Notes: generated from the sequence alone by a model not told the origin. DNA of 61,993 bases from an uncultured Candidatus Poseidoniales archaeon (GCA_902530535.1 CACAAP010000004.1:1-61993), one strand, 5' to 3'. Shown: positions 38,601 to 50,570, numbered from the stretch's first letter. Numbers and translations: made by a program.

Positions 38601-38693
38601 GGAAAATTGTGCCTCGGATTATCCGATAATGGAATCTGATTCTGTAAGAGAGGTTGTTCGATTTAGAAATCGTAATTTTAGGCAATTTTAATG

Positions 38694-38714
38694 TCCTCCT
38701 ACTACGTAGGAGGA
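38694..38714 (+). promoter_or_regulatory. hairpin sequestering the Shine-Dalgarno sequence of the giant surface-protein gene
   Basis: TCCTCCTAC-TAC-GTAGGAGGA, a 9-bp stem with a 3-nt loop. The 3' arm contains GGAGG and ends 2 nt before the ATG at 38717. Confidence 0.4.
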
Positions 38715-38716
38715 GT

Positions 38717-41700
38717 ATGCCCAGTGACAACGCGGCCGGGTCGCGCCTGTCCCTTCTACTCGTATCTGTCATGATTCTCCCAAGCTTGTTGGCCATAGTT
38801 TCAACTAACGAGGTATCAGAAGAAATGGAGATAGAGCAATCTTCTAAGGGTTCAATGGAAATTCCAAGCTATATTCCAAATGCTAATGATTCTGATTCAG
38901 ATAGCGACGTATATGGGTGGATTTCGGACAAAGGAAATATTGGGGCTGCACATCTTTTTCATAGAACAGCTACCTACGTCCCTATTCAGGATTGGGAGCA
39001 AAGGACTGGAGAAGGCGTAATTTCAGGATGGCACGTTCTGGGACGCACATATCCGATCCCCTCTGACTGGAAGGCTGAACTGGAAGATATTGGTCTGGAA
39101 TGTAGGACTTTCTTCTCTCCGCAGGGACTTCACTGCAATGTACCAAAGTTGTCTACGGGGGATCTTATGGAAGCAGGAGTGATTGGAGCGTTCAGACTAT
39201 CAGAATCAGACAAGATAGCCCCGGATGCTAAATTAATCCTCCAAGGATTTTCGAATGAAGACGCATTGAAAATTGGAGATAAGTACATCATGCTTCTACT
39301 TCTTTCTGGGACGGAGCACTCGGCAGAACTCATGGAGAGTGGTGTTGAAATTTTAGATATCCGAAGTGGAAGATTCGCTGACGTAGTTGTCGATACAAAG
39401 GAAATCGAAATGCTATCGAAGCAGAACTTCGTAGAATGGATAGAACCGACATACGCTGCTGAGTTAGATAACGAAATGGCATCTGAAATAATCGGAGGGG
39501 ATTGGGTTGCTGATACATCTAACATGATGAGTTTTGGTGGAGCTCTAACAGGGGCGGGCGTGATTGTGGGGGTAATGGATTCTGGACTAGATTCAGCAGT
39601 TGAGTGCACAGGTCATTCTAATTGTGACAGTGTTAACTCTGGCGTCCATGCCGATATTGCAGGTAGGATTGAGGCCGTAAAGAACTACGAAAGCTGTGAC
39701 AGTGTGTGCTCATTCACCGTTTTACAAACCGGAACATACGCAACTAGCACAATAACGGACTCGGATACCCCCTCGGACTACAACGGACATGGAACCCATG
39801 TAGTAGGGTCCATATTGGGAGACGGCACTAATTCCCCTACTGGAGAAGACCATACGGGAATGGCGCCAGAGGCCCGTCTTTTCATGCAATCTGTAGGATA
39901 TGGTTGCAAAGACTCTGACAGTAACAATGACGGAGTAGACGATAAGACGAGTTGCGATGCCTATCTTGACTCCATCACCGCCAATTACGATAGTTTCCTA
40001 TCGGAAGCCTATGATGGAGGAGCCAGGGTCCACTCAAACTCATGGGGAACCGGTCCGCACAAGCAGACTGGTGGTTGTACTGGTTCTGAATGTTGGTCAT
40101 ATTACAGCGCAAACACCCTGGAACTAGATGAAGCTGCCAACGACTATGCCGATATGACCATTCTTTTCGCTATGGGGAACGATGCTAGGGACTGCACATA
40201 CCTATCTCTCTTTCCTGGTTATGGAAACTTTTGCTCGAACGGCCAGGATGGGGAGATAAACTTAGGCGCCCACAATAGGCAGAGTTCTGCAAAGAATATC
40301 ATCTCAGTTGGAGCATCTGAGTCGGAGAGAAATACGCTAGATATGCATAGTTGGACGAATAAGGCTATTTGCAATAATTGTAATTGGTTAGGCGTCCCAA
40401 TTAGAAGTGATCAGTCGGCTGATGATATCGAGGGGATGGCGTTCTTCTCCAATAGAGGTCCCACTAGTGATGGTCGAACGAAACCAGATATAGTTGCACC
40501 AGGAACTATGATTCACTCAACTAAGACCTCTCTGAAGACAACTTCTAGCTATGATACCTGGGATGGGAACTACCATATCAAGTGGGGAACCTCTATGGCG
40601 ACGCCAATCACTGCAGGTTCGGCTGCCTTGCTCATTGAATATCTCAACAACTTCGGCTATGACTGCAATTTGGCAATCAGCTCCTCTAGAGACAATTGTC
40701 CAGATTCCGCTTTAGTTAAGGGCATACTTAGTGCATCGGCTCATGATCTGACGGGACAGTACACAACTGGCGGAACTGGTGGAAATGGGGCAGCTGAGAA
40801 GGCTCCTAACAGCCATGAGGGTTGGGGCAGGGTCGATATGGAGAGGACATTGGGAAGTGGCTTCACGGATGGAATTTACATTTCGACATTCGATAGTCAC
40901 TCATTCAAACTGACAGTCCCAGATACAGGACTGAGCAGCGTAAGAGTCGTACTTTCATGGAACGATCCGGCTAATTCTGCCTCGGCATTACAGCAACTCA
41001 GGAACGATTTAGACATCCAGCTCAAAAGTCCATCTGGAGAATTGATCGATTATCTCAATGACGATATCAATAATCTGGTAGGGATTACAGTGGATAATCC
41101 AGAGGCAGGAGACTGGGAGGTCATCGTTACAGGTTCTCAAGTGATCGATGGATCTCAGAAGTACTTCTTAGCATCCAGTGATGGGGTAATCACAGATATG
41201 AGACAACCTGTATCTAGCGATTACAATGTAGCGGGTTTCCAAGCAGGTTCTATTTTCACTGAGACAAAAATGACGGTTGGGGACGATCACATCTGCTCCA
41301 TATTGGAAGACTCGACCCTGAAGTGCTGGGGCGACAACACATTCGGTCAGCTAGGTGACGGCACGACCATCGACAGGATGTTGTTGACAGATGTAAGCCT
41401 CGATTCATCCAGGACTGCCCTCTCTATTAGCTCTGGTAAAGACCACACTTGCGCGATTCTTGACAATGGCGAATTGCAATGCTGGGGGAGGAACAATCAC
41501 GGACAGCTAGGTGATGAAACAAATACTCACTCCGGTGTTCCTGTCGAGGTTGATCTATCTGAATTCCCTGTACAACTATCTTCAGGAGACTGGCATAGTT
41601 GCGCGATATTGGACGATGCCAGTCTGGAGTGCTGGGGTAGGAATAATCACGGGCAACTAGGAGACGGGACCAACCTTGACAGCAGCAGCCCCGTTCCAGT

Positions 41701-44700
41701 GGATCTCCCTGGGGAGAAATTTTTGGCCGTCTCGGCTGGTGCTGACCACACTTGCGCGATAACCAAAACCTGGGCGTTGATGTGCTGGGGTTCGAATGGG
41801 AATGGGCAACTAGGGATCGGCTCCATTGTTTCCACCAATAGCCCTTCCACAGTAACCGTGGGTGGGAGCGCAGTGGCAGTATCTGCCGGTGGTTCGCATA
41901 CCTGTGTAATCATGGATGGTTCAGTAGGAAGTGGTGGCTTAAAGTGCTGGGGACTGAATGACAACGGACAGCTTGGGGACGGATTGACGAACCAGCAGAA
42001 TGATGCCTCAACGGTAAGCACAATAATTTCAGACGCAGTATCTATTGACTTGGGGAGGCATCACACCTGCGCTATTGACTCCAGCCAATCATTGCACTGC
42101 TGGGGAGGAGGTTCGTCTGGACAAATTGGAGATGGGAGTACTTCAGAACAGGTCGTTTCTCCCACGGAGATATCTCTCGGACAGAACCTAGGGGCATTTT
42201 CAGTTGCCTCTGGGGGTTCTTACACTTGCGTTGTCGGAAGCAACGACCTTCTGAGATGCTGGGGGGGTAATGGTTTCACTTCCACTCTCGACCTGGGCAC
42301 ATCCCCCTCAGAGTTCACAGCGGTTTCAAGATGGAGTTATATTGGTACATCCGAAAGGGACTGGAACGGGAATGGCGAGTTGAACATCTTCGAAGTCGGA
42401 ATAGCCTCTGATTCTGATGGGGATGGCTTTCCCTTCGGGATATCTGATAGTGACGATAACAATCCGACAGTCGCTGCAAACTGTCCCTCGGGAGAGTATG
42501 GCAGATTCACTTGCAGAGAGGCGACTCAGGGGTATTACGTAAGTGGAACTGGAAACACAATAATGACTCCGGCAAGTCCTGGACACTACGTAGACTATAA
42601 CGGCGCATCATCACAAACCCAGTGCCCTGTAGGGAAATTCCAAGAGTTGTCAGGCCAGACTTCCTGCGACGATGCCCTGCCAGGATACTACGTAGCAGAG
42701 CTTGGTGCTTCTTCTGGCACTCCCTGTCCGGCGGGGAAATACAACAACCAATATGGAATGACTTCAGATTTGGCTTGTGAATGGGCGGAAGCAGGTCATA
42801 GCGTACCAGTACTAACTGAGGTATCCTCTGGAGCGGCTCACACTTGCGCTATTCTTGATGATAGTTCAGTTAGCTGCTGGGGGCTGAATGACAACGGACA
42901 GCTGGGGGACGGGACCAGAGTGTCGAGCCTGGAACCGCAAAAGGCCTCAATGCCGCTAGGAAGAGAAGCAGTTGAGATTTCTGCAGGGTCATACCATACC
43001 TGCACCCTGCTTGACGACGGATCAATTCGTTGCTGGGGTTCCAACTCATTCGGTCAGCTAGGTGACGGCACGACCATCGAAAGAACCACCCCGATTACTG
43101 TTAATCTCGGCTCTGGAGTATCTGCAATCGGAGTATCCTCCGGAGAGTCGCATACATGTGCAGTACTCACTGACAACACTGTGAAGTGCTGGGGGCTGAA
43201 TGCTAACGGCCAGATAGGTGATGGGACAACAACCGACCGACATAGCCCTGTACATTCCTCAATTGGGGGGACGGGGGCACTGAAGGTCTCAGCGGGTTCC
43301 TACCACACATGTGCGATAACCGTAGACCGAAATGTGATGTGCTGGGGGGAGAATTGGAACGGACAACTCGGAGACTCCAGCAATGTCGATAGGAACTCGC
43401 CGGTCGAAGTGTCAATCCCGAGCAACAGCAGTGCAGTATCGATTGACTCGGGTGCTTTCCATTCCTGCCTAGGGATGAATGATGGTTCGATGTTCTGTTG
43501 GGGTTATAACGCCCAAGGACAACTGGGCAATGGAGGAACTTCGGACTCCAATAGCCCGCTTCCTTCAGCGTTGAGTTCGAACCAACTTCTGATAGAAATA
43601 GAGGTTGGCCTCTTCCACAGCTGCGGACTTTTCGATTCAGGTGAAGTCGCATGCTGGGGGGATAACAGCTACGGGCAACTCGGTGACGGGACCCAGACTG
43701 CACATTCAACCCCGGAGATTATCATCCTGAGCACCAATGCAACGTCAATCTCAGTTGGCCATAGGCACACCTGTCTGATTTTGGATGATGCCAGCCTGAA
43801 ATGCTGGGGAGCGAATGAATTCGGACAGGTTGGGGATGGTGGGACCACTGATTCCAGCACCCCCCAGCATATCGATCTAGGGCACGGTTCCAAAGAGCAG
43901 GTCCCTTGCGAGAGGGGGACATACCAGCCACTACCTGAGAAGACTACTTGCATTCTAGCATCAAGGGGTTTCATGGTGCCCGATTCGGGCCAGACGGAGC
44001 AGATTGGATGCTCAGCGGGATACTACTCAAGTCTGAAGGGGCAACGTGCTTGCGTTCCAGCTGCCAGGGGATTCTACGTTTCAGAGAGTCAGGCTACATC
44101 GCAGACTCAGTGCCCGGCAGGGCAATCTACGATTAGTGAGGCATCCACATTCTTCGATGACTGCTTCGCAGACTTCGATGGTGATGGGGTTCCCGATCAG
44201 ATAGATGAAGACGACGACAACGATGGAGTCCCGGACCAGGATGACTACGACCCGCTTGATCCGGAAGTCTCCTTCGACTCGGATGGAGATAGGATCCCGG
44301 ACAGTATCGACACCGATGACGACAACGACGGAGTGAACGACACCGAAGATCCGTTCCCAAATGACCAGAACGAGTGGGAGGACTTCGATGGAGACGGAGT
44401 TGGAGATAACTCGGACGATGACGATGACGGCGATGGGAGGCCTGACTCCTTCGACGTTTTCCCGAACGATCCCAACGAGTGGGCTGACGCGGACGGTGAC
44501 GGGTGGGGGAACAACGTAGACCCTGACGACGACAACGACGGCAGGTGCGACGACACCACTTACCACATCACAGATCAATATGGCGCATTGGTGAGCAATA
44601 GTGGGCCTGACCTAAATGGCGATGGTGCTCCTGATTGCCTTACTTCGGCGAAAGGCGACGAGTTCCCCCTGGATGCAAATGAGACCGATGATACTGATGG

Positions 44701-45364
44701 AGATAGCATAGGAAACAACCAGGACACTGATTGCGACGGAGATGGTTGGCTCAATCCAGTACCATGCAACAGCCAAGGGAGCGGAGAAAATGGAACCGAT
44801 GCCTTCCCTCTAGAAGCCGATAAATGGTCCGACTCAGATGGGGACGGATTTGCTGACCAAGGGAGCAACGTGGACGCCTTCCCCGATGATCCAATTGAGT
44901 GGTTGGATACCGATGGCGACAGCGTTGGGAACAATGCCGATGAGTGCCCATACGAGTTTGGCATCAGCTCGCAAGACGAGGACTTCTGGCAGATTCTTGC
45001 TTTGCCCGGAAATGACCTCGGTTGTCCGATTCAGACCCTAATCGGAGAGGAGATAATCGACGACGGAGTAGAGGAAAACGAGGATATCTCATTCGAAGGA
45101 GGGGGCGACTCACTGGACTTTGATGGCGACGGGATTTCCGATGTCGAAGACGATGACGATGACGGTGATGGAATTCCAGATTTGGAGGATGGGGTCCTAG
45201 GTGATGAGAAGTGGTCCAGAGACCCATTCAGGCCCTTCAGTGGTGAGACTTGGGCAATTCTAGCGGTTTCGGTATCTTTCATTGGAGTGATCGCCTACCG
45301 TACTGCTGATTGGAAGAAGAGGGGGGTGGCCAACATCCGCTCAAGAAGGATAAGAATTCAGTGA
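38717..45364 (+). CDS. giant secreted multidomain surface protein: S8 subtilase, two 7-blade RCC1-like propellers, Cys/Tyr-rich modules and thrombospondin-type-3-like Ca-binding repeats, with a C-terminal anchor
   Basis: Signal peptide after MPSDNAAGSR. S8 motifs VGVMDSGLD, NGHGTHVVGS and GTSMATP. 14 copies of CWG-N--GQLGDG. CP-G-Y/GYYV modules. DxDxDGxxDxxD repeats. A TM segment plus a basic tail. Confidence 0.85.
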   Translation: MPSDNAAGSRLSLLLVSVMILPSLLAIVSTNEVSEEMEIEQSSKGSMEIPSYIPNANDSDSDSDVYGWISDKGNIGAAHLFHRTATYVPIQDWEQRTGEGVISGWHVLGRTYPIPSDWKAELEDIGLECRTFFSPQGLHCNVPKLSTGDLMEAGVIGAFRLSESDKIAPDAKLILQGFSNEDALKIGDKYIMLLLLSGTEHSAELMESGVEILDIRSGRFADVVVDTKEIEMLSKQNFVEWIEPTYAAELDNEMASEIIGGDWVADTSNMMSFGGALTGAGVIVGVMDSGLDSAVECTGHSNCDSVNSGVHADIAGRIEAVKNYESCDSVCSFTVLQTGTYATSTITDSDTPSDYNGHGTHVVGSILGDGTNSPTGEDHTGMAPEARLFMQSVGYGCKDSDSNNDGVDDKTSCDAYLDSITANYDSFLSEAYDGGARVHSNSWGTGPHKQTGGCTGSECWSYYSANTLELDEAANDYADMTILFAMGNDARDCTYLSLFPGYGNFCSNGQDGEINLGAHNRQSSAKNIISVGASESERNTLDMHSWTNKAICNNCNWLGVPIRSDQSADDIEGMAFFSNRGPTSDGRTKPDIVAPGTMIHSTKTSLKTTSSYDTWDGNYHIKWGTSMATPITAGSAALLIEYLNNFGYDCNLAISSSRDNCPDSALVKGILSASAHDLTGQYTTGGTGGNGAAEKAPNSHEGWGRVDMERTLGSGFTDGIYISTFDSHSFKLTVPDTGLSSVRVVLSWNDPANSASALQQLRNDLDIQLKSPSGELIDYLNDDINNLVGITVDNPEAGDWEVIVTGSQVIDGSQKYFLASSDGVITDMRQPVSSDYNVAGFQAGSIFTETKMTVGDDHICSILEDSTLKCWGDNTFGQLGDGTTIDRMLLTDVSLDSSRTALSISSGKDHTCAILDNGELQCWGRNNHGQLGDETNTHSGVPVEVDLSEFPVQLSSGDWHSCAILDDASLECWGRNNHGQLGDGTNLDSSSPVPVDLPGEKFLAVSAGADHTCAITKTWALMCWGSNGNGQLGIGSIVSTNSPSTVTVGGSAVAVSAGGSHTCVIMDGSVGSGGLKCWGLNDNGQLGDGLTNQQNDASTVSTIISDAVSIDLGRHHTCAIDSSQSLHCWGGGSSGQIGDGSTSEQVVSPTEISLGQNLGAFSVASGGSYTCVVGSNDLLRCWGGNGFTSTLDLGTSPSEFTAVSRWSYIGTSERDWNGNGELNIFEVGIASDSDGDGFPFGISDSDDNNPTVAANCPSGEYGRFTCREATQGYYVSGTGNTIMTPASPGHYVDYNGASSQTQCPVGKFQELSGQTSCDDALPGYYVAELGASSGTPCPAGKYNNQYGMTSDLACEWAEAGHSVPVLTEVSSGAAHTCAILDDSSVSCWGLNDNGQLGDGTRVSSLEPQKASMPLGREAVEISAGSYHTCTLLDDGSIRCWGSNSFGQLGDGTTIERTTPITVNLGSGVSAIGVSSGESHTCAVLTDNTVKCWGLNANGQIGDGTTTDRHSPVHSSIGGTGALKVSAGSYHTCAITVDRNVMCWGENWNGQLGDSSNVDRNSPVEVSIPSNSSAVSIDSGAFHSCLGMNDGSMFCWGYNAQGQLGNGGTSDSNSPLPSALSSNQLLIEIEVGLFHSCGLFDSGEVACWGDNSYGQLGDGTQTAHSTPEIIILSTNATSISVGHRHTCLILDDASLKCWGANEFGQVGDGGTTDSSTPQHIDLGHGSKEQVPCERGTYQPLPEKTTCILASRGFMVPDSGQTEQIGCSAGYYSSLKGQRACVPAARGFYVSESQATSQTQCPAGQSTISEASTFFDDCFADFDGDGVPDQIDEDDDNDGVPDQDDYDPLDPEVSFDSDGDRIPDSIDTDDDNDGVNDTEDPFPNDQNEWEDFDGDGVGDNSDDDDDGDGRPDSFDVFPNDPNEWADADGDGWGNNVDPDDDNDGRCDDTTYHITDQYGALVSNSGPDLNGDGAPDCLTSAKGDEFPLDANETDDTDGDSIGNNQDTDCDGDGWLNPVPCNSQGSGENGTDAFPLEADKWSDSDGDGFADQGSNVDAFPDDPIEWLDTDGDSVGNNADECPYEFGISSQDEDFWQILALPGNDLGCPIQTLIGEEIIDDGVEENEDISFEGGGDSLDFDGDGISDVEDDDDDGDGIPDLEDGVLGDEKWSRDPFRPFSGETWAILAVSVSFIGVIAYRTADWKKRGVANIRSRRIRIQ

Positions 45365-45449
45365 TGGTGCAGGGAGCAGGATTCGAACCTGCGAAGCACT
45401 ACGCACAGCGACCTGAACGCTGCCCCTTTGACCACTCGGGTACCCCTGC
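45365..45449 (-). tRNA. tRNA-Leu (anticodon CAG), class II with a long variable arm and encoded CCA
   Basis: Hand-folded cloverleaf. Acceptor GCAGGGG/UCCCUGC. Anticodon stem CAGCG/CGCUG with loop UUCAGGU. T arm GCAGG-UUCGAAU-CCUGC. 3' ACCA. Confidence 0.85.
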
Positions 45450-45501
45450 TTAGCGTTCGCCCTGCTAGAAGTAACTTCAATGCAGCGAATGAGTCTTTTT
45501 T

Positions 45502-45586
45502 TGGTGCAGGGGGCAGGATTCGAACCTGCGAAGCACTACGCACTGGGACCTAAACCCAGCCCCTTTGACCGCTCGGGTACCCCTGC
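45502..45586 (-). tRNA. tRNA-Leu (anticodon UAG), class II with encoded CCA
   Basis: Same scaffold as the neighbouring tRNA. Anticodon stem CUGGG/CCCAG with loop UUUAGGU. Confidence 0.85.
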
Positions 45587-46702: not shown

Positions 46703-46850
46703 TCCGTAACAAAGCTCGTAGCATCACAGGATATGCTGCAACAGTAACCGACTGTCTGACAGTGTTTCTTGGAAAGTGGTGCTTCGAAAATATTTGTATT
46801 TGACGTTGTCTTAAACATCAAATTATATCTTCAGGATATACCAGAAAATA

Positions 46851-47258
46851 ATGAGCAACGTTCATGATGTCAGCCTTAGTGAGAATAAGATAGCCAGAAT
46901 TATTTGGTTTTCAACAGGTATAATTGTGATGTCGGTTGGATTTATTGGAGTCGTAGTCCCAGGATTGCCGACAACCCCTTTGATGATTCTAGCAGCAGCA
47001 TGCTTTGCTAAATCTAGTCAGCGATTCTATGATTGGATAATTAACAACAAGATGTTTGGAAAGCATGTCATAAATTACAGGGAGGGAAAAGGAATTCCAA
47101 AAAAAGTAAAACCAATAATATTGATTACAATGTGGATTTTTGTTATTTTTGCTATATTTGTAGGAATACCGGATGAAATGCTAATACCTAAAATTTCGAC
47201 GTTTGCTTTGGCTCTAGTTGGAACTATATTCATAACCAGTTTACCTAGTATAATTTGA
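46851..47258 (+). CDS. DUF454 (YbaN-like) inner-membrane protein
   Basis: GVVVPGLPTTPLMILAAACFAKSSQRFYDWI hallmark region. 135 aa with 3-4 TM segments. Confidence 0.8.
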   Translation: MSNVHDVSLSENKIARIIWFSTGIIVMSVGFIGVVVPGLPTTPLMILAAACFAKSSQRFYDWIINNKMFGKHVINYREGKGIPKKVKPIILITMWIFVIFAIFVGIPDEMLIPKISTFALALVGTIFITSLPSII

Positions 47259-48321
47259 TTCGAAAGCTCTGTTTGACGAGATCTGATAGACCCTTAATCC
47301 AACTTGACCTGTCATTAAGACACTCAACCACACTGAAGCGTTGACCTCCATGTTTTAGGTAGTGTTCACGGGCCTCGATATTTAGTTCCTCCAGAGTCTC
47401 TAAGCCGTCGACAAGAAATGCAGGAGAGACAACAACAACATTGGATTCTCTTTTTGCTAGATCTTCAACAACGGAAAGGGTGGATGGTTCGAGCCACTTA
47501 GCAGGACCGAATCTGCTCTGGTAAGATATGGACCAAGAGTCATCAAGAAGTCCTAACTCTTTTACTACTGCCTTTACAGTCATATTACAATGATGAGCAT
47601 AGCACATCGAGTTTGCATCTTTGGAAATCATACAGCATCCGTCTATTTTTTGGCAATGAATTCCTGATTTATCTGACCTCTTTACTTGGGATATTGGAAG
47701 CCCATGAAATGAAAATAGTAGGTGACTGTCGTCTTGAAGATGGGGCCTAATTGATTCAACAAGCGGGCCTATGAAGGCTGGATCATCTTCAAAATGTCCT
47801 AACTCAAAAATATCAGGTCTCCATCTTAGTTTGTCAAGTTGTCGAAAGGCCTCTTTCATAGAAGACTCAGTTGTAGCTTGGGCATGATGTGGGAATAATG
47901 GGGCCAGCACCAGTTCATCAACCCCCTTTGACTTGAGGATTTTTAGGCCCTTTGCAATGCTAGGATTACCATATCTCATCCCCACTTGACACTCAATATT
48001 GACCAATTCTGATTGTAATTTTTCAGCCATTCTATTAGTATAAATCCGTAGAGGGGAGTCGCCTTCCTTCCATATGCTGGCATATCTAGGCGCAATTTTC
48101 TTCGGCCTAACGTTTAGGATGATTCCCTTAACAAGTATGTATCTAAGTATAGCAGGGATATCAATAACATCTGGATCCATCAAGAACTCTGCCAGATATT
48201 TTCTAACCGATGGTACGGTTGCTTCATCTGGAGTGCCGATATTCATTAGTAGCACTCCCCTTTTTGTCACAATTTGACGAGTTAGATTGGTTATTAATTG
48301 GTATGTATCGGAATCTCTCAC
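47245..48321 (-). CDS. hemH: ferrochelatase
   Basis: GVLLMNIGTPD, YLAEFLMDPDVIDIP, SFHGLP and SPAFLVDGLETLEE motifs. Confidence 0.85.
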   Translation of the reverse strand: MRDSDTYQLITNLTRQIVTKRGVLLMNIGTPDEATVPSVRKYLAEFLMDPDVIDIPAILRYILVKGIILNVRPKKIAPRYASIWKEGDSPLRIYTNRMAEKLQSELVNIECQVGMRYGNPSIAKGLKILKSKGVDELVLAPLFPHHAQATTESSMKEAFRQLDKLRWRPDIFELGHFEDDPAFIGPLVESIRPHLQDDSHLLFSFHGLPISQVKRSDKSGIHCQKIDGCCMISKDANSMCYAHHCNMTVKAVVKELGLLDDSWSISYQSRFGPAKWLEPSTLSVVEDLAKRESNVVVVSPAFLVDGLETLEELNIEAREHYLKHGGQRFSVVECLNDRSSWIKGLSDLVKQSFRIKLY

Positions 48322-48398
48322 AATATTTGAAAACTAACATCGGACTGAATTCTTCCCCATTTATTTCGTTATCGGAGATTATGCTCAGAGGGTAGCGT

Positions 48399-48538
48399 GT
48401 GAGCGGTATAGCAGTCAGTCGGTATCTGTGATGCTCATTGTGGTCAGAGGGTTTGCCCTAGCAACCCATTGAGATTAGGTTATGATCAGAGGGGTGGTTA
48501 CTTGATCCCTGTGATTCCTATACTGGTCAGAGGGATCT
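48399..48538. repeat. left inverted-repeat arm
   Basis: Matches the reverse complement of 50011-50150 (101 of the first 120 positions by hand count). Carries TCAGAGGG cores at 48384, 48443, 48485 and 48526. Confidence 0.8.
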
Positions 48539-48545
48539 CTCTAAA

Positions 48546-49106
48546 TCAGATTCGACCCATGGAATCCTTCGGAAAACCCGTTCCCCTCCAAATTGAGTAG
48601 TTTACCATAGTATACCATTTAATCGAATACTCACCCGGAAAAGGTCTCCAGACCTCTCCTGATGGTGAACGACTACCTAGGTCGTCTTTACCCTCCATTC
48701 CCACGTTTACCTCTCCCATAATGCCGCATCCGCACTTTGAGCACATTGTTACTAGAACTAACAACGGATAGTTCCATCCCCAAACCGCATAATCGTAACC
48801 CGACTTGGTTATTTCCATTACCCTAATTGGTGCCCATTCTCCCAAGGTGGTTGGCACCCAATCGCCTTTTTCGCCCTCTTCTTTCTCCCACAATGCCAGT
48901 TGTATCTCGTCTTTTTTATATGGTTTGCAAGGATAGGAATCGTCACGATAATCGCAAGGATACCAGTCCTCTGGAAGTTCTCCCATTGGATACCAAGGGT
49001 TGATGACGTGGGGATCTGCCACTCCCTGGGCAGACCATCTGCCACCCTCTAGCCACACTCGTCCTTGTTCTTTGAAGCCGAGCTCTTCATGTAGGCGAAA
49101 TCCCAT
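48546..49106 (-). CDS. orphan Trp/Cys-rich protein with RNA polymerase subunit B (Rpb2) C-terminal-like motif order
   Basis: 186-aa ORF. GFRLHEELG, GVADPHVINPWYP, GEW...(31 aa)...CSKCG and C-terminal motifs are collinear with conserved RpoB/Rpb2 blocks. An AT-rich TATA-like sequence lies about 26-33 nt upstream. Confidence 0.5.
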   Translation of the reverse strand: MGFRLHEELGFKEQGRVWLEGGRWSAQGVADPHVINPWYPMGELPEDWYPCDYRDDSYPCKPYKKDEIQLALWEKEEGEKGDWVPTTLGEWAPIRVMEITKSGYDYAVWGWNYPLLVLVTMCSKCGCGIMGEVNVGMEGKDDLGSRSPSGEVWRPFPGEYSIKWYTMVNYSIWRGTGFPKDSMGRI

Positions 49107-49239
49107 AAAATAACTCTCAAATGAAATGATATTTAATTGAATTGTACTATTTCACCAAATCTGAGTCCTATACGAGTCAGAGGCTTGGCGTAGGCGTTGG
49201 TTGTACAGAGAAAAATGGTGAAGACTTCTCAAAGGGCCC

Positions 49240-49297
49240 CCCTATGAGTCGTGGGCGCTTCAAAGGGTACCCTCTGACCACTATACGACTCATAGGG
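49240..49297. promoter_or_regulatory. 13-bp perfect inverted repeat (CCCTATGAGTCGT / ACGACTCATAGGG) enclosing a 10-bp palindrome AGGGTACCCT
   Basis: Read directly. Lies in the 246-nt spacer between the two divergent cassette ORFs. Confidence 0.5.
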
Positions 49298-49352
49298 TTA
49301 TCAGAGGATTCAAATTGATCTAGTAAATCCACATTTGAAAGGAGACCAGAAT

Positions 49353-49982
49353 ATGGAACTATCTGACTTCGGACTAGACGAAAAGACGATGGAAGAGATA
49401 CTAACTATCAGCGTTCTTGAAATTAAAGGGAGAGGACAGTTTGAGCCGCTCAATGAAGATGGGACTCCTAAGCAGGGCTCATTATTGGATCCACGATTGG
49501 AGGAATCCTTCGGGCACATAGTCCTCGCACGTCCAGTAAAGCCCATTGATATGGTCCGATTGCAACTACCTGTCAAGCAAATAACAACCCTCCCAGTCCC
49601 CCCAATTTCAATCAGGAGGAATGCAGAAGGTGGAATGAAGCGCCATCATAAGTATGATGACGTAACTTGGGCCCTGATGAGCATCTCCTCGATGAATGCG
49701 AGACTGGGGGTGATGCAGGAAATACTCGCTAAGGATTTATCTGACGGTAGTGCTAGGGAAATTGCGGATATGATGGAAGAACTATTGGAATATTATATCT
49801 CAACTTATTTGGACAACCAATTAGGCGAATACTATCATTCAAAACGGGGTATAGTGAGGAAGTTTGCTCCCGGAGTGTACCAATACTGCTTTCCAGAAGA
49901 CTCATCTAGAAAATGGAATGGAATTTACAAATCTAGTAGAGTCAAGGAGCTCGAAGAACGCTTCAAGAATATGAACACTTGA
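49353..49982 (+). CDS. orphan protein resembling a miniaturised RNA polymerase subunit A'/Rpb1 N-terminus (clamp core plus clamp coiled-coil, no zinc sites, no active site)
   Basis: 209 aa from the ATG at 49353, with GGAG 9 nt upstream. Blocks DFGL..EEI..ISVLEI, GSLLDPRL, FGHIVLARPV, LPVPPISIR, YDDVTWAL..I..MNARL and LLEYYISTYLDNQLG occur in the same order as Rpb1/RpoA' conserved blocks. Confidence 0.55.
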   Translation: MELSDFGLDEKTMEEILTISVLEIKGRGQFEPLNEDGTPKQGSLLDPRLEESFGHIVLARPVKPIDMVRLQLPVKQITTLPVPPISIRRNAEGGMKRHHKYDDVTWALMSISSMNARLGVMQEILAKDLSDGSAREIADMMEELLEYYISTYLDNQLGEYYHSKRGIVRKFAPGVYQYCFPEDSSRKWNGIYKSSRVKELEERFKNMNT

Positions 49983-50010
49983 TGATCAACTCGTCATTTG
50001 GAGCCCCTAT

Positions 50011-50150
50011 CAGAACCCTCGGACCCCAGTAGCATTCAGAGGGACTAGGCAAGCACCCCTCTGAGCATAACCTACCCTCAATGGGTTGCTAGGGAGAACC
50101 CTCTGAACTCAATGCGAATCACAGATACCGTCTGACTGCGATACCGCTCA
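50011..50150. repeat. right inverted-repeat arm
   Basis: Reverse complement aligns with 48399-48538. Carries a conserved TCAGAGGG-N13-CCCTCTGA hairpin at 50036-50064. Confidence 0.8.
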
Positions 50151-50178
50151 TACGCTAGCGTGTGAGCGGTATCGCAGT
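50135..50178. repeat. 44-bp near-perfect palindrome (one mismatch) centred on CGCTAGCG
   Basis: ACTGCGATACCGCTCATACGCT|AGCGTGTGAGCGGTATCGCAGT. Only one half (48392-48413) is present at the left end of the unit. Confidence 0.75.
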
Positions 50179-50189
50179 AGTTATGGGCA

Positions 50190-50570
50190 CTAAATAAACA
50201 AAAAGGAGATGTTTAAAATCAGTATTACCAAGGTAGAAGTGACGCTTATTCTGTGAAGAATAGAGAACTTTTTTTGGTTACCCTCATCAGTTGCTCTATT
50301 TGTTGCAGGGATTATTAGGTAACAGATAACTGACAGAACGATGGTTGTTAGCCCGATGGAGTAATGCAGAAGATTCGCCTCGTCCTCAAGGGACAATGAT
50401 ACAGTTGAAAGCAAGCCAATCACAATCAATGCAAGAAAAAATTTAGGCCACAGATCTCTAATTGCTCTACCGAAATCGTCAATCTTCAGGTTTCTGAACA
50501 GGCTCGGCGCAACTATAGCAGTTTGCATCAGAATAAGTCCAACAGCCATGCCAGGAAAGTAATAGTGCAA
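50190..50570 (-). CDS. small 4-TM membrane protein (possibly DUF4149-like)
   Basis: 126-aa hydrophobic ORF. Low GC (20 G+C in nt 50221-50280 by hand count). Confidence 0.45.
   Translation of the reverse strand: MHYYFPGMAVGLILMQTAIVAPSLFRNLKIDDFGRAIRDLWPKFFLALIVIGLLSTVSLSLEDEANLLHYSIGLTTIVLSVICYLIIPATNRATDEGNQKKFSILHRISVTSTLVILILNISFLFI

What the first reader, a model, noticed from the sequence alone, without database searches (positions are those of the whole stretch)
48381..50178. Mirror-symmetric two-gene cassette bracketed by ~140-nt inverted arms built from TCAGAGGG cores
A 1.8-kb unit with mirror symmetry lies between the hemH start (48321) and the stop of the small membrane gene (50190).
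- Arms: the left arm (48399-48538) aligns with the reverse complement of the right arm (50150-50011). By hand count, 101 of the first 120 positions match.
- Arm content: each arm holds several TCAGAGGG/CCCTCTGA cores and one conserved hairpin, at 48485-48513 on the left and 50036-50064 on the right.
- Cargo: the arms start 8 nt and 29 nt after the stops of two divergent ORFs (48546-49106 minus, 49353-49982 plus).
- Consequence: both mRNAs would end in the same-sense structured ~140-nt sequence.
- Spacer: the 246-nt spacer between the ORFs carries three more core copies, at 49177, 49270 (reverse) and 49301.
- What is missing: I see no transposase, integrase or target-site duplication, so this is not a standard IS or MITE.
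- Context: it sits in a low-GC patch.
It could be a new kind of mobile or invertible cassette, or a gene pair with a shared 3' RNA element.
Basis: seen in the sequence. Interest (0 to 1): 0.85.

Follow-up and report, generated by a model that had tools for sequence, protein, structure and literature searches.

The report
Repeat-bounded accessory gene cassettes in marine archaea
The mirror-image unit is real: it is two back-to-back accessory-gene cassettes bounded by a previously undescribed repeat family of Marine Group II archaea, and homology between related loci stops at these repeats, as if they were the joints where cassettes are swapped, flipped and moved.

Summary
The arms 48383-48538 and 50012-50167 are 156 nt and 81% complementary (BLASTN E = 3e-27).

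- **Not unique.** The arm is an oriented ~144-nt element with a variable head and a near-invariant tail. It occurs in 142 loci from Poseidoniales/Thalassarchaeaceae genomes and marine metagenomes.
- **Building block.** Arms are built from, and usually followed by, 28-bp palindromic units with consensus CCCTCTGA-N12-TCAGAGGG.
- **Cargo.** Genes next to arms are very diverse: 576 protein clusters, and 115 Pfam families among 120 proteins. None of them recurs as a transposase or integrase.
- **Same scaffold, different genes.** The layout arm / gene / double unit / gene / arm recurs with unrelated genes in L147 and L001.
- **Same gene, different contexts.** ORF2 sits in five contexts. ORF1 and other cargo genes also recur in different contexts.
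- **Breakpoints.** Homology between such loci stops at unit half-sites.
- **RNA reading.** RNA folding and covariation give no support for a shared 3' RNA element.

My best reading is that these are exchangeable, invertible cassettes recombined at the units by an enzyme encoded elsewhere. They work like integron cassettes or Acinetobacter dif modules but share no sequence with them. That enzyme has not been identified.

Side finding: ORF2 is a stand-alone mimic of the RNA polymerase A' clamp coiled-coil.

The parts
48385..48392 (-). Half unit (CCCTCTGA on the minus strand) just outside the left arm's tail. It is the start of the unit that usually follows a tail.
   Evidence: Sequence. In a hand count of the listing of 169 arms, about 110 are followed by a CCCT-type unit; the script's own strict count was 71.
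48393..48538 (-). Left arm, minus orientation. The tail (TAGCGTGTGAGCGGTATAGCAGTCAG...) faces hemH at 48393. The head unit (CCCTCTGACCAGTATAGGAATCACAGGG on the minus strand) faces the ORF1 stop.
   Evidence: the repeat finder I1. nhmmer matches profile positions 2-144 at 48535-48393, E = 1.3e-42. Alignment with 13 other arms.
48546..49106 (-). ORF1, 186 aa, cargo gene of unknown function. It has no Pfam, PHROG or PADLOC hit.
   Evidence: Only one homologue cluster (P0023, 80% identity) among 5.8 billion proteins. That homologue lies in a different context without ORF2 or arms.
49107..49159 (-). ORF1's own upstream region, with a TTAAATA (TATA-like) box. It travels with ORF1.
   Evidence: Homology with L006 runs through this stretch and stops at 49164. 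The promoter role is inferred.
49160..49184 (.). Degenerate unit (TCTGA-GTCCTATACGAG-TCAGAGGC). It marks the 5' boundary of the ORF1 cassette.
   Evidence: (D2). Homology between the window and L006 begins at the TCAGA half-site.
49240..49308 (.). Central double unit: CCCTATGA-N12-TCAAAGGG (49240-49267), TA, CCCTCTGA-N12-TCATAGGG (49270-49297), TTA, then a half unit TCAGAGGA (49301-49308).
   Evidence: The same unit-TA-unit-TTN-half-unit module sits between the divergent genes of L001 (2677-2734) and L147 (672-743).
49290..49352 (+). 5' end of the ORF2 cassette. It starts at the right half-site of the second central unit and includes ORF2's upstream region and a GGAG ribosome-binding site.
   Evidence: Homology with L178 (94%) and with L174 (74% nt) both begin at 49289/49290, while the left half-site and centre differ in all three.
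49353..49982 (+). ORF2, 209 aa. A stand-alone homologue of the N-terminus, clamp core and clamp coiled-coil of RNA polymerase subunit A' (Rpo1N), lacking the zinc-binding and clamp-head segments.
   Evidence: Pfam RNA_pol_Rpb1_1 E = 4.7e-9, below the curated cut-off. Family profile against PDB: Rpo1N 2pmz_A E = 1.5e-15, residues 15-49 to 18-49 and 77-167 to 209-291. dN/dS 0.33 against L001. About 10 stand-alone clusters worldwide.
50015..50157 (+). Right arm, plus orientation. The head unit (CCCTCGGA-CCCCAGTAGCAT-TCAGAGGG) lies 32 nt after the ORF2 stop. The tail ends ...GATACCGCTCATACGCTA.
   Evidence: nhmmer matches profile positions 2-144, E = 6.1e-46. The ORF2-linker-arm arrangement is conserved in L173.
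50135..50178 (.). 44-nt near-perfect palindrome, formed by the right arm's tail and a truncated inverted tail (50156-50178). It lies 11 nt from the DUF4149 stop codon.
   Evidence: the repeat finder I5, 22-nt arms 95% complementary. nhmmer matches profile positions 122-144 on the minus strand.
47245..48321 (-). Flanking host gene hemH (ferrochelatase). It is not part of the cassettes. The true start is probably about 16 codons downstream of 48321.
   Evidence: Pfam E = 3.7e-96. Homologues are 336-349 aa and cover 92-95% of the ORF.
50190..50570 (-). Flanking DUF4149 membrane-protein gene. A 70%-identical copy lies next to an ORF2 homologue in L174 in the other relative orientation.

Best explanation
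The 1.8-kb mirror unit is two independent accessory-gene cassettes placed head to head at a variable site of an iron/haem gene island in a Marine Group II (Thalassarchaeaceae-type) archaeon.

**Layout of a cassette.** Each cassette runs: right half of a 28-bp palindromic unit, own upstream region, gene, oriented ~144-bp arm made of 4-5 degenerate units, left half of the next unit.

**What the repeats do.** Units and arms are a lineage-specific dispersed repeat family that marks the ends of accessory genes. I propose that the units are recombination sites. A recombinase encoded elsewhere in the genome would exchange DNA within the centre of the unit. The unit consensus is a 28-bp palindrome, which can also be read as 11-6-11, the geometry of tyrosine-recombinase core sites such as dif.
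- Recombination between directly repeated sites would excise or insert a cassette.
- Recombination between inverted sites would flip it.
- The conserved arm may be an accessory sequence next to the core site.

**What is shown.** The repeat family is dispersed. The scaffold is conserved with changing cargo. The same cargo occurs in different contexts. The unit is present or absent at the hemH locus among relatives. Homology breakpoints lie at unit half-sites.

**What is inferred.** The breakpoints come from site-specific rather than other recombination. The arm has an accessory role. A tyrosine recombinase is the agent.
For: 1. **Dispersed family.** An exact tail pattern hits 27 genome contigs. 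Of these, 19 carry true arms: 17 labelled Poseidoniales, Thalassarchaeaceae, MGII, uncultured euryarchaeote or Methanobacteriota archaeon, and 2 labelled as bacterial MAGs. The other 8 have no arm, which is what chance predicts. A profile search finds 206 arms in 142 loci, 105 of them full length.
2. **Cargo diversity.** 780 ORFs fall into 576 clusters, the largest with 8 members. 120 arm-adjacent proteins hit 115 Pfam families, none in more than 2 proteins. They include HsdR, a C5 methylase, SIR2, kinases and an HNH nuclease.
3. **Same scaffold, other genes.** L147 has arm(-) / 131-aa gene / double unit / gene / arm(+). L001 has arm(-) / 413-aa gene / double unit / ORF2 / arm(+), next to HisRS. 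Among neighbouring arm pairs, 21 have tails outward, 5 tails inward and 38 are direct (21 against 5 gives binomial p of about 0.001).
4. **Same gene, other contexts.**
   - ORF2 occurs with ORF1 (window), with a 413-aa gene (L001), after a 203-aa gene (L173), after an arm tail (L178/L179), and after DUF4149 plus a unit (L174).
   - L076 and L147 share a cargo gene at 100% identity over 584 nt, with different flanks.
   - L149 and L152 differ by a 645-aa gene plus a tail fragment.
   - L097 differs from L010 and L056 by an arm plus a 464-aa gene.
5. **Breakpoints at units.**
   - The ORF2 cassette starts at the right half-site (window 49290) in three contexts, each with a different left half and centre.
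   - The ORF1 cassette runs from TCAGA| to |CCCTCTGA.
   - L076/L147 homology ends after CCCTCTGA|.
   - L090/L153 homology ends at TA|CCCTCTGA and at CCCT|. L010 carries a hybrid unit.
6. **Locus polymorphism.** L157/L158 share 88% DNA identity with the window over DUF454-hemH but lack the unit. Homology stops 57 nt from the arm tail. More distant relatives carry Fea1 and flavodoxin at this position.
7. **Placement.** 53 arm heads lie within about 60 nt after a same-sense stop codon, against 24 that lie beside a gene start.
8. **Geometry.** The unit consensus is a perfect 28-bp palindrome. This is the size and layout of bacterial and archaeal dif sites (PMC2958812) and of pdif sites, whose modules shuffle, invert and excise (PMC13141974).
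Against: - **No enzyme found.** The Pfam census, motif regexes and a XerD bait search over about 180 loci found no recombinase. All of these are weak negatives, and whole genomes could not be scanned.
- **Trivial breakpoints.** Where two copies of a repeat lie in different contexts, homology must end at the repeat edge. Some junctions are therefore trivially at units.
- **Assembly artefacts.** Metagenome assemblers can mis-join at repeats, which matters for the 100%-identity pairs. The 74-94%-identity comparisons from different samples are not open to this objection.
- **Mixed orientation.** Arms occur in both relative orientations, and about a quarter of heads abut gene starts. The grammar is looser than in integrons.
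- **Low copy number here.** There is one cluster in 62 kb.
- **No direct products.** No circular cassette or direct excision product was found. L044 has arms at both ends but is not terminally redundant.
- **Short breakpoint homologies.** The junction TAG in L149/L152 and the CAAT flanking a 129-nt indel could equally reflect illegitimate recombination.
Confidence: 0.55

Rival explanations
1. REP/BIME-like extragenic palindromes. On this view the 28-nt units and the 144-nt composite are selfish or structural intergenic repeats, spread by a single-copy HUH (RAYT-like) transposase or by gene conversion. They would pile up in the dispensable intergenic DNA of accessory regions. Cassette shuffling would be a by-product of homologous or illegitimate recombination between copies. 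Any function would be in mRNA 3'-end protection, termination or nucleoid-protein binding.
For: - The units are 28-nt palindromes, extragenic, often in tandem clusters, and arranged in a conserved composite as BIMEs are (REP features from PMC3733652).
- Heads prefer the 3' ends of same-sense genes (53 against 24).
- A tail-to-tail doublet forms a 44-nt hairpin like a REPIN.
- No enzyme gene is linked to the repeats, as expected for repeats mobilised in trans.
- Arms differ more between L076 and L147 than the identical cargo gene does, which suggests conversion among arms.
Against: - There is no selection for pairing. Interior complementarity is 2.46 against a null of 2.28, and position 5/5' is complementary in 58 cases against 56.5 expected.
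- There is no terminal GTAG or CGTC tag.
- Copy number is far below typical REP families, with only one cluster in 62 kb.
- No HUH motif occurs in any locus.
- The view does not by itself explain why cassette boundaries fall at the same sub-site of the unit in several independent contexts.
Confidence: 0.22
2. Non-autonomous transposon. On this view the inverted arms are long terminal repeats with several transposase-binding sites, as in Tn7, Mu or IR-DR Tc1 elements. The unit would be a passenger-carrying element moved by a transposase encoded elsewhere.
For: - The inverted ~150-nt ends are built from repeated ~28-nt sites, with tails outward far more often than inward (21 against 5).
- The outermost tail is the best-conserved part.
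- The family is dispersed and contigs often break at arms.
- TA often flanks units.
Against: - No target-site duplication is seen at the window, L147 or L001.
- 38 neighbouring pairs are direct, and many arms are solitary.
- ORF1 and ORF2 move separately, and cassette boundaries lie inside the 'element' at the central units.
- No autonomous copy with a transposase lies between arms in 142 loci.
- A single arm has no terminal inverted repeat beyond the 8-nt half-sites.
Confidence: 0.1
3. Shared structured 3' RNA element. On this view both mRNAs end in the same ~140-nt RNA, which acts in stability, termination or regulation.
For: In the window and in most other loci the arm is in the same sense as the upstream gene and begins 0-40 nt after its stop codon. 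Local hairpins are possible.
Against: - Folding z-scores are -0.7 to -1.75.
- There are 0 compensatory pairs in 14 arms, and the consensus energy is -11 kcal/mol.
- Rfam gives no family above noise.
- 24 of 106 heads abut a gene start on the opposite strand.
- The same units also lie upstream of genes, between divergent starts.
- There are no oligo-T tracts of the kind used by archaeal terminators.
Confidence: 0.06
4. Divergent integron. On this view the arms are attC-type sites, forming a cluster of attC sites without an integrase.
For: One gene is followed by one ~60-150-nt imperfectly palindromic site. There are arrays of gene-site-gene-site (L032, L155, L120, L100). Cargo is very diverse and promoter-bearing. 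No integrase is nearby, as in most archaeal attC clusters (PMC9668308).
Against: - There are no R''/R' core sites (RYYYAAC ... GTTRRRY) at the arm ends.
- The arm does not fold as one long hairpin.
- The primary sequence is highly conserved, unlike attC sites.
- Arms occur in both orientations within one locus.
- Poseidoniales and Thermoplasmatota are not mentioned in the main text of the archaeal integron survey.
Confidence: 0.04

Closest known systems
Acinetobacter dif modules (pdif sites recombined by XerC/XerD)
   Same: - Small modules of one to a few accessory genes are bounded by 28-bp recombination-type sites and carry no recombinase of their own.
- Modules are found in different orders, orientations and contexts.
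- Inversion and excision occur with the crossover at the site (PMC13141974).
- Here the unit consensus is a 28-bp palindrome. Cassettes recur in different contexts and orientations. Breakpoints lie at unit half-sites.
   Different: - The system here is chromosomal in an archaeon rather than on Rep_3 plasmids.
- The half-sites are nearly identical, so there is no C/D asymmetry and no strict alternation of module types.
- Each cassette also carries a conserved ~144-bp arm, which dif modules lack.
- There is no sequence similarity, and no evidence that XerA or any Xer enzyme acts on the units.
Integron gene cassettes, attC sites and attC clusters lacking an integrase (including the archaeal integrons of Ghaly et al. 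2022, PMC9668308)
   Same: The grammar is 'gene plus one imperfectly palindromic site'. There are short arrays, very diverse and mostly uncharacterised cargo, and often no integrase nearby.
   Different: - There are no R'/R'' core motifs.
- The arm does not fold as a single hairpin.
- Conservation is in the primary sequence rather than in structure.
- Orientations are mixed, including head-to-head pairs.
- Cassettes carry their own upstream regions.
- Poseidoniales is not mentioned in the main text of the archaeal survey.
REP/BIME elements and REPIN-RAYT systems of bacteria
   Same: Both are short extragenic palindromes arranged in conserved mosaics, preferentially after the 3' ends of genes, with inverted doublets and no linked transposase.
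   Different: - There is no GTAG or CGTC tag.
- There is no pairing covariation.
- Copy number is low.
- The link is to variable cargo rather than to core genes.
- No RAYT was found, and the host is an archaeon.
cer/psi-type Xer sites (a core site plus ~160-180 bp of accessory sequence)
   Same: A ~28-bp core lies beside a conserved accessory arm of about 150 bp on one side. This statement of cer/psi anatomy is from my own knowledge.
   Different: This is a resemblance of layout only. No accessory proteins, topology filter or Xer dependence is known here.
RNA polymerase subunit A'/Rpo1N clamp (for ORF2), including the engineered clamp construct crystallised with Spt4/5 (PDB 3qqc)
   Same: ORF2 aligns to Rpo1N residues 18-49 and 209-291, which cover the clamp core and clamp coiled-coil, including the LPVPP and Y..TYLDN motifs.
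   Different: ORF2 is a 209-aa stand-alone protein. It lacks the zinc-binding segments, the clamp head and every catalytic part of the polymerase. It scores below Pfam's curated cut-off (36.5 against 39.7 bits). It is cassette-borne and rare.

Membership tests
Integron attC site | Core sites R'' (RYYYAAC) and R' (GTTRRRY) at the two ends of the site | tested here: not met
   Arm ends are CCCTCTGACC... and ...CTCACACGCTA in 14 aligned arms. No such motifs occur at the boundaries.
Integron attC site | A single strand folds into one long imperfect hairpin that pairs the two ends | tested here: not met
   Minimum-energy folds are multi-branched, the ends do not pair, and z-scores are -0.7 to -1.75. 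The consensus fold has only short local helices.
Integron attC site | Co-oriented arrays next to an intI gene and attI site (or clusters without intI) | tested here: inconclusive
   Direct arrays exist (L032, L155, L120), but 26 of 64 neighbouring pairs are inverted. No integrase was found in 180 loci.
Xer/dif-type module (pdif-like) | 28-bp site made of two ~11-bp inverted binding arms around a 6-bp spacer | tested here: inconclusive
   The unit is 28 bp and its consensus is fully palindromic (CCCTCTGA-CYCGTA|TACGRG-TCAGAGGG), so it can be read as 11-6-11. Only the outer 8 nt of each arm are strongly conserved. Geometry taken from PMC2958812 and PMC13141974.
Xer/dif-type module (pdif-like) | Crossover within the site, giving hybrid sites at module borders | tested here: met
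   The ORF2 cassette starts at the right half-site in three contexts that differ in left half and centre. L010 has a hybrid unit, and other junctions lie at half-sites.
Xer/dif-type module (pdif-like) | The site resembles the host chromosomal dif site and is recombined by the host Xer enzyme | not testable with these tools
   The dif site and XerA of this lineage are not available here. No recombinase lies in the window region examined.
REP/BIME - RAYT | 20-40-bp extragenic palindromes in composite mosaics | tested here: met
   28-nt units form tandem clusters and a conserved 144-nt mosaic.
REP/BIME - RAYT | Conserved GTAG or CGTC tetranucleotide at one end, and a stem kept by pairing | tested here: not met
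   Units are flanked by TA or GGG, not by GTAG or CGTC. There is no covariation at the variable stem position (58 observed, 56.5 expected).
REP/BIME - RAYT | High copy number (usually over 100 per genome) and an associated RAYT gene | tested here: inconclusive
   There is one cluster in 62 kb and 1-2 contigs hit per genome by an exact pattern. No HUH motif occurs in the loci. Whole genomes could not be scanned.
MITE or composite DDE transposon | Terminal inverted repeats with flanking target-site duplications | tested here: not met
   No duplication is seen outside the tails in the window, L001 or L147. A single arm has no inverted termini beyond the 8-nt half-sites.
MITE or composite DDE transposon | A related autonomous element encoding the transposase | tested here: not met
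   No transposase lies between or beside arms in 142 loci. This is limited to the DNA fetched.
Known structured RNA family (Rfam) | A match to a curated covariance model, or covariation-supported structure | tested here: not met
   The best Rfam hits have E of 0.06 or worse and are far below gathering scores. There are 0 compensatory pairs.
RNA polymerase largest subunit (for ORF2) | Rpb1 domain 1 above the curated threshold, plus the catalytic domains | tested here: not met
   ORF2 scores 36.5 bits against a cut-off of 39.7, and only profile positions 208-284 match. Homology to the clamp core and coiled-coil is nonetheless significant with a family profile (E = 1.5e-15). ORF2 works like, or derives from, a clamp fragment. 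It is not a polymerase subunit.

The most novel reading that the evidence does not exclude
Poseidoniales may carry a previously unrecognised cassette-exchange system. In it, 28-bp palindromic core sites, each paired with a conserved ~144-bp accessory arm, would let a chromosomally encoded recombinase (possibly XerA or a paralogue) excise, insert and invert promoter-bearing accessory-gene cassettes at several chromosomal hotspots. That would be an archaeal functional counterpart of integrons and dif modules, built from unrelated sequence. One of its cassettes encodes a free-standing copy of the RNA polymerase clamp coiled-coil with a fast-evolving tip. This protein could act as a decoy for Spt4/5 or TFE, or for a factor that targets the clamp.
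Probability: 0.35. Interest if true: 0.85.

Novelty: new variant of a known kind. Interest (0 to 1): 0.72.

Why it matters
Marine Group II archaea are among the most abundant archaea in the surface ocean and remain uncultured. How their flexible genome is assembled is largely unknown.

A defined repeat grammar that marks cassette borders would give three things:
- a sequence tag to find and catalogue the accessory gene pool of this lineage directly in metagenomes;
- a testable recombination substrate, the 28-bp unit, for identifying the enzyme;
- a possible third independent solution, after integrons and dif modules, to the problem of shuffling single genes.

The repeats also break assemblies, since many arms lie at contig ends. 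Knowing them should therefore improve binning and scaffolding of these genomes.

ORF2, if it binds Spt4/5, TFE or a clamp-targeting factor, would be a natural tool for probing archaeal transcription.

Tried and rejected
- **Rfam** scan of 48300-50250 at E up to 1: only noise.
- **RNA folding** of six arms: z-scores not significant (one search failed on a length limit).
- **RNAalifold** on 14 arms: no covariation.
- **Hairpin selection in the 28-nt units:** interior pairing and position 5/5' covariation are both at null level.
- **attC reading:** rejected on end motifs and fold.
- **Target-site duplications** around the tails: none.
- **tRNA genes as integration targets:** only 5 tRNA genes in 120 loci, of which only L077's lies near an arm (about 50 nt from the tail), plus two tRNA-Leu genes 2.8 kb from the unit in the window.
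- **Linked recombinase:**
  - the Pfam census of 120 neighbours shows only the top 25 families, so single hits could be hidden;
  - regexes for tyrosine-recombinase and HUH motifs found nothing;
- **Viral origin:**
  - no arm in 50,697 phage records;
  - only one IMG/VR contig carries an arm;
  - ORF2 relatives in viral contigs align only to the clamp segment (residues 77-171) at 29-32% identity, which I take to be polymerase large subunits; one is a GVMAG contig.
- **Charybdis elements of Poseidoniales** (bioRxiv 10.1101/2025.08.03.668216): read and found unrelated to the arms.
- **AlphaFold2 model of ORF2:** mean pLDDT 44, too poor for a fold search. Only the helical hairpin at 103-157 is moderately confident.
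- **Circular cassettes:** no contig with arms at both ends is terminally redundant.
- **PADLOC and PHROGs** on ORF1, ORF2 and several cargo genes: nothing except the HNH nuclease of L001.

Full report

Yes. The repeat finder reports inverted arms at 48383-48538 and 50012-50167: 156 nt, 81% complementary, 1473 nt apart. BLASTN of the left region against the whole window finds the right arm at E = 2.9e-27 and no other copy in 62 kb. The 8-mer TCAGAGGG occurs 13 times against 4.0 +/- 1.8 expected, and 8 of those lie in 48385-50106.

The two divergent ORFs are there (48546-49106 minus, 49353-49982 plus). The arms begin 7 and 29 nt after their stop codons. The flanking genes are ferrochelatase and a DUF4149 membrane protein. 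The low-GC patch (0.34-0.47) is wider than the unit, about 46.6-51 kb.

The right arm's tail is followed by a 23-nt inverted copy of itself, which gives a 44-nt near-perfect palindrome at 50135-50178 (I5).

**2. Anatomy of the repeat**

I aligned the two window arms with copies from elsewhere. This defines an oriented element of about 144 nt.
- The head is CCCTCTGA-CCCCAGTAGCAT-TCAGAGGG.
- The middle is semi-conserved: ...CACCCCTCTGAGCATA...CAATGGGTTGCTAGGG...
- The tail is almost invariant: ...TCACAGATACCGNCTGACTGCGATACCGCTCACACGCTA.

The arm is itself made of 4-5 degenerate copies of a 28-nt unit, CCCTCTGA-N12-TCAGAGGG (families D1 and D2). By my hand count of the listing of 169 arms, the tail is directly followed by a further CCCT-type unit in about 110 (the script's strict count was 71), usually after a TA. 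I found 153 distinct units. Their consensus is a perfect 28-bp palindrome, CCCTCTGA-CYCGTA|TACGRG-TCAGAGGG.

In the window both tails point outward, toward hemH and DUF4149, and both heads face the cargo. The spacer holds two full units joined by TA (49240-49267 and 49270-49297), a half unit (49301-49308) and a degenerate unit (49160-49184).

**3. The arms are a dispersed, lineage-specific family**

An 18-base tail pattern hit 27 contigs among 185,579 species-representative genomes.
- By profile search, 19 carry real arms. Of these, 17 are labelled Poseidoniales, Thalassarchaeaceae, MGII, uncultured euryarchaeote or 'Methanobacteriota archaeon'.
- The other 2 (L020, L028) are labelled as bacterial MAGs and are probably mis-binned.
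- The remaining 8 have no arm, which is about what chance predicts.

Altogether a profile search finds 206 non-overlapping arms in 142 loci, 105 of them full length.

Many arms lie at contig ends, as expected for a repeat that breaks assemblies. Virus collections hold essentially none: no hit in 50,697 phage records, and one IMG/VR contig (L036), which encodes a terminase fragment and ends in an arm tail.

**4. What lies next to the arms**

The 780 ORFs of these loci fall into 576 clusters, the largest with 8 members. The 120 representative arm-adjacent proteins hit 115 different Pfam families, none in more than two proteins. They include:
- a type I restriction R subunit;
- a C5 DNA methylase;
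- SIR2;
- Ser/Thr kinases (PD-T4-6-like in PADLOC);
- an HNH nuclease;
- a CAAX/Rce1 protease;
- pentapeptide and TSP3 proteins;
- many proteins with no match at all;
- ordinary host genes such as HisRS.

No transposase or integrase recurs. Crude motif searches and a XerD-bait search found none in any locus. Both are weak negatives.

**5. Placement rules**

Of 106 arms with an intact head:
- 53 have a same-sense gene ending within about 60 nt before the head;
- 24 have a gene start on the opposite strand next to the head;
- 29 have neither, or lie at an edge.

Of 64 neighbouring arm pairs, 38 are direct, 21 have tails outward as in the window, and 5 have tails inward. So the window's mirror layout is a recurrent architecture, and heads tend to face cargo. 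These counts include some redundant contigs.

**6. Same scaffold, different genes**

L147 reads: arm(-), 131-aa gene(-), unit-TA-unit-TTC-half unit, a different gene(+), arm(+), then a further unit. This is the window's layout with unrelated cargo.

L001 comes from an assembly (GCA_902584235.1) and lies next to HisRS rather than hemH. It reads: HNH gene, arm(+), small ORF, arm(-), 413-aa gene(-), double unit, ORF2 homologue(+), arm(+).

Arrays of the form gene-arm-gene-arm occur in L032 (methylase, then kinase), L155, L120 and L121. L100 has two arms in tandem.

**7. Same genes, different contexts**

ORF2 homologues occur in five settings:
- with ORF1, in the window and in L159;
- with a 413-aa gene, in L001;
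- directly after a 203-aa gene, with the same linker and arm as in the window, in L173;
- directly after an arm tail and without a downstream arm, in L178/L179 (94% identical);
- after a DUF4149 gene (70% identical to the window's) plus one unit, in L174.

In L174 ORF2 has the opposite orientation relative to DUF4149. That is what an inversion of the cassette would produce.

ORF1's only homologue (80% identity) lies in contigs without ORF2 or arms.

Among metagenome contigs:
- L076 and L147 share a cargo gene at 100% identity over 584 nt but differ on both sides;
- L149 and L152 are 100% identical except for a 645-aa gene plus a tail fragment, and a 129-nt piece of arm head;
- L090 and L153 are 99.8% identical up to the unit after the arm and then diverge;
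- L097 has an arm plus a 464-aa gene where L010 and L056 (98-99% identical flank) do not.

**8. Where homology stops**

- The ORF2 cassette begins at window 49289/49290, the first base of the right half-site of the second central unit. This holds against both L178 and L174. The left half-site and centre differ in all three: CCCTCTGA CCACTATACGAC in the window, ACCTTTGA TTCTAATTCTAG in L174, and arm tail ...GCTACCC in L178.
- The ORF1 cassette, compared with L006, runs from the TCAGA half-site at 49164, through its TTAAATA-containing upstream region and the gene, to ...AGAGAGA(T/G)CCC|, the first bases of the arm head.
- L076/L147 homology runs from ...AGAGGG|TACCCTTTGA to ...ACGCTACCCTCTGA|.
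- L090/L153 homology runs from TA|CCCTCTGA to GCTACCCT|.
- L097, L010 and L056 share TAGCGTGTG| and then continue as a full arm, a hybrid unit, or bare half-sites.

A cassette is therefore bounded by a right half-site at its 5' end and a left half-site at its 3' end. Joining the two ends would rebuild one unit.

Caveats:
- Where two repeat copies sit in different places, homology must end at the repeat edge.
- The 100%-identity pairs could include assembler mis-joins.
- The 74-94%-identity comparisons from independent samples are not open to that objection.

**9. The hemH locus in relatives**

- L159 (hemH 99% identical) has the same arm-hemH junction as the window.
- L157/L158 (hemH protein 91% identical; DNA 88% over window 46778-48336) have no unit. 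Upstream of hemH lie a 108-aa gene and a SOUL haem-binding gene. Homology stops 57 nt before the arm tail. [quoted passage not shown]
- In L160-L163 (hemH 75% identical) the whole block between gpsA and the transporter genes is inverted relative to the window. Fea1 and flavodoxin occupy the place of the unit and DUF4149.

The neighbourhood is an iron/haem island: hemH, DUF454, a HugZ-like CREG/DUF2470 protein, a FecCD-type ABC transporter and Fea1. The unit is thus not fixed at this site.

**10. Is it an RNA element?**

I find no support for this.
- Arm folds are no more stable than shuffled controls (z from -0.7 to -1.75).
- The consensus fold of 14 arms has -11 kcal/mol and no compensatory pair.
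- Rfam gives only noise.
- Within units, interior complementarity (2.46 of 6) is at the null level (2.28 +/- 0.10).
- The variable stem position 5/5' is complementary in 58 units against 56.5 expected.

Conservation is of sequence, not of pairing. That fits recognition by a protein, or recent copying.

**11. Mechanism**

The evidence fits recombination at the units.
- Direct sites would give excision and insertion.
- Inverted sites would give inversion.
- Each event would leave hybrid units at the borders.

The 28-bp palindromic consensus has the size of dif-type tyrosine-recombinase sites, 11-6-11 in bacteria and archaea (PMC2958812). The closest working analogue is the dif-module system of Acinetobacter plasmids. 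There, gene modules without a recombinase are bounded by 28-bp pdif sites and are shuffled, inverted and excised by host XerCD (PMC13141974).

The conserved arm beside a core unit recalls the accessory sequences of cer and psi sites. That comparison rests on my own knowledge and is one of layout only.

The enzyme is unknown, the tyrosine-recombinase idea is inference, and whole genomes could not be scanned. I put 0.55 on 'exchangeable, invertible cassettes recombined at the units', and less on any named enzyme.

The main rival (0.22) treats the repeats as REP/BIME-like extragenic palindromes, with shuffling as a by-product. The others are a non-autonomous transposon (0.10), a 3' RNA element (0.06) and a divergent integron (0.04).

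**12. The cargo of the window**

ORF1 (186 aa) has no detectable family.

ORF2 (209 aa) is homologous to the N-terminus, clamp core and clamp coiled-coil of archaeal RNA polymerase subunit A'/Rpo1N.
- A profile of 17 family members hits Rpo1N structures at E = 1.5e-15. ORF2 residues 15-49 align to Rpo1N 18-49, and 77-167 to 209-291.
- The hits include the engineered clamp construct 3qqc, which from my own knowledge was crystallised with Spt4/5.
- The segment corresponding to Rpo1N residues ~50-208, which from my own knowledge of the A' structure holds the zinc-binding sites and the clamp head, is missing.
- The family is tiny: about 10 stand-alone clusters at 50% identity among 1.84 billion proteins.
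- It is under purifying selection. dN/dS is 0.33 against L001, and 0.56 in the coiled-coil region against 0.11-0.20 elsewhere.
- The AlphaFold2 model is poor (pLDDT 44) apart from a helical hairpin at 103-157.

A decoy for factors that dock on the clamp coiled-coil (Spt4/5, TFE) is a reasonable guess. It is untested.

**13. Comparison with what is known, and novelty**

I found no description of these repeats.
- The main text of the archaeal integron survey does not mention Poseidoniales or Thermoplasmatota.
- Searches for repeats, miniature inverted-repeat elements or genomic islands in Marine Group II returned nothing relevant.
- I found no paper among the search results, read only by title and abstract, that describes a REP-RAYT system in archaea.

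The system fails the defining tests for attC sites, for REP-RAYT elements and for transposons that make target duplications. It shares layout and behaviour, but no sequence and no proven enzyme, with dif modules. I therefore rate it a new variant of a known kind, namely cassettes delimited by recombination sites. It would deserve a higher rating if a dedicated recombinase is found.

Noticed in passing
window 49353-49982 (+): ORF2 is a stand-alone homologue of the RNA polymerase A'/Rpo1N N-terminus, clamp core and clamp coiled-coil, without the zinc and clamp-head segments. The family is rare (about 10 clusters at 50% identity). It is under purifying selection, with a faster-evolving coiled-coil region. 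It may be a decoy for Spt4/5 or TFE.
   Followed up: partly
window 50135-50178: A 44-nt near-perfect palindrome, made of the right arm's tail plus a truncated inverted tail, lies 11 nt downstream of the DUF4149 stop codon. It could be a recombination footprint or a hairpin shared by the two convergent transcripts. L016 has a similar tail-to-tail junction (2864-2942).
   Followed up: partly
window 46.8-60.7 kb; L160-L163: The neighbourhood is an iron/haem island: hemH, DUF454, a HugZ-like CREG/DUF2470 protein, a FecCD ABC transporter with its binding protein, and Fea1. Relative to L160-L163, the block from DUF454 to the S15 peptidase is inverted between gpsA and the transporter genes. No units were seen at the inversion ends.
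   Followed up: partly
L174 98-1222; window 49353-50570: DUF4149 (70% identical) lies next to an ORF2 homologue in L174 too, but in the other relative orientation, with a single unit between them. This suggests an old association and an inversion of the ORF2 cassette.
   Followed up: partly
L036 (= L128), IMGVR_UViG_3300027906_001724, 4158-4226: This is the only viral-collection contig with an arm. It encodes a terminase large-subunit C-terminal domain and ends in an arm tail. It may be a provirus-host junction or a virus that carries the repeat.
   Followed up: partly
L027 4170-4215, L116, L054, L109, L145 (just after arm tails): A second recurrent motif, (A)ATCCTCGTG(A/G)GT..., follows several tails. 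In L027 and L116 it forms a 9-bp-stem hairpin whose loop resembles a tRNA T-loop. ARAGORN calls no tRNA there.
   Followed up: no
L090 1-45 and 2145-2190: The contig begins with the reverse complement of the sequence that follows its arm, so the layout is rc(X)-segment-X. This is either an inversion polymorphism collapsed by the assembler or an assembly artefact.
   Followed up: no
L020 (Planctomycetaceae MAG PBOU01000193.1) and L028 (Vicinamibacteraceae MAG CAZWKO010000117.1): Contigs binned into bacterial MAGs carry full arms (E = 1e-42 and 5e-24). L020 shares 74% DNA identity with Poseidoniales contigs. They are probably mis-binned archaeal contigs.
   Followed up: partly
L003-L008 (e.g. 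L003 1436-1480 / 2436-2480): The lineage that carries the ORF1 homologue has a different but related palindromic repeat set (CCCTTATGTATGCGGGCGTCATA..., CCCATTATGATAGGCCGCTGTCATTGAG). Variant unit families may therefore exist in other Marine Group II clades.
   Followed up: no
L001 2-559 and 3536-3607: An HNH endonuclease gene is followed by its own arm. A 23-codon ORF lies in a ~160-nt insert between ORF2 and its arm that the window lacks.
   Followed up: no
window 38654-45586: A 2236-aa secreted-type protein with a subtilase domain and many RCC1 repeats is followed by two tRNA-Leu genes (45365-45449 and 45502-45586). A homologous giant protein precedes gpsA in L163.
   Followed up: no
window 48273-48321: The hemH ORF as listed (GTG at 48321, 358 aa) is probably about 16 codons too long. 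Nearly all homologues are 336-349 aa and align to 92-95% of it.
   Followed up: no
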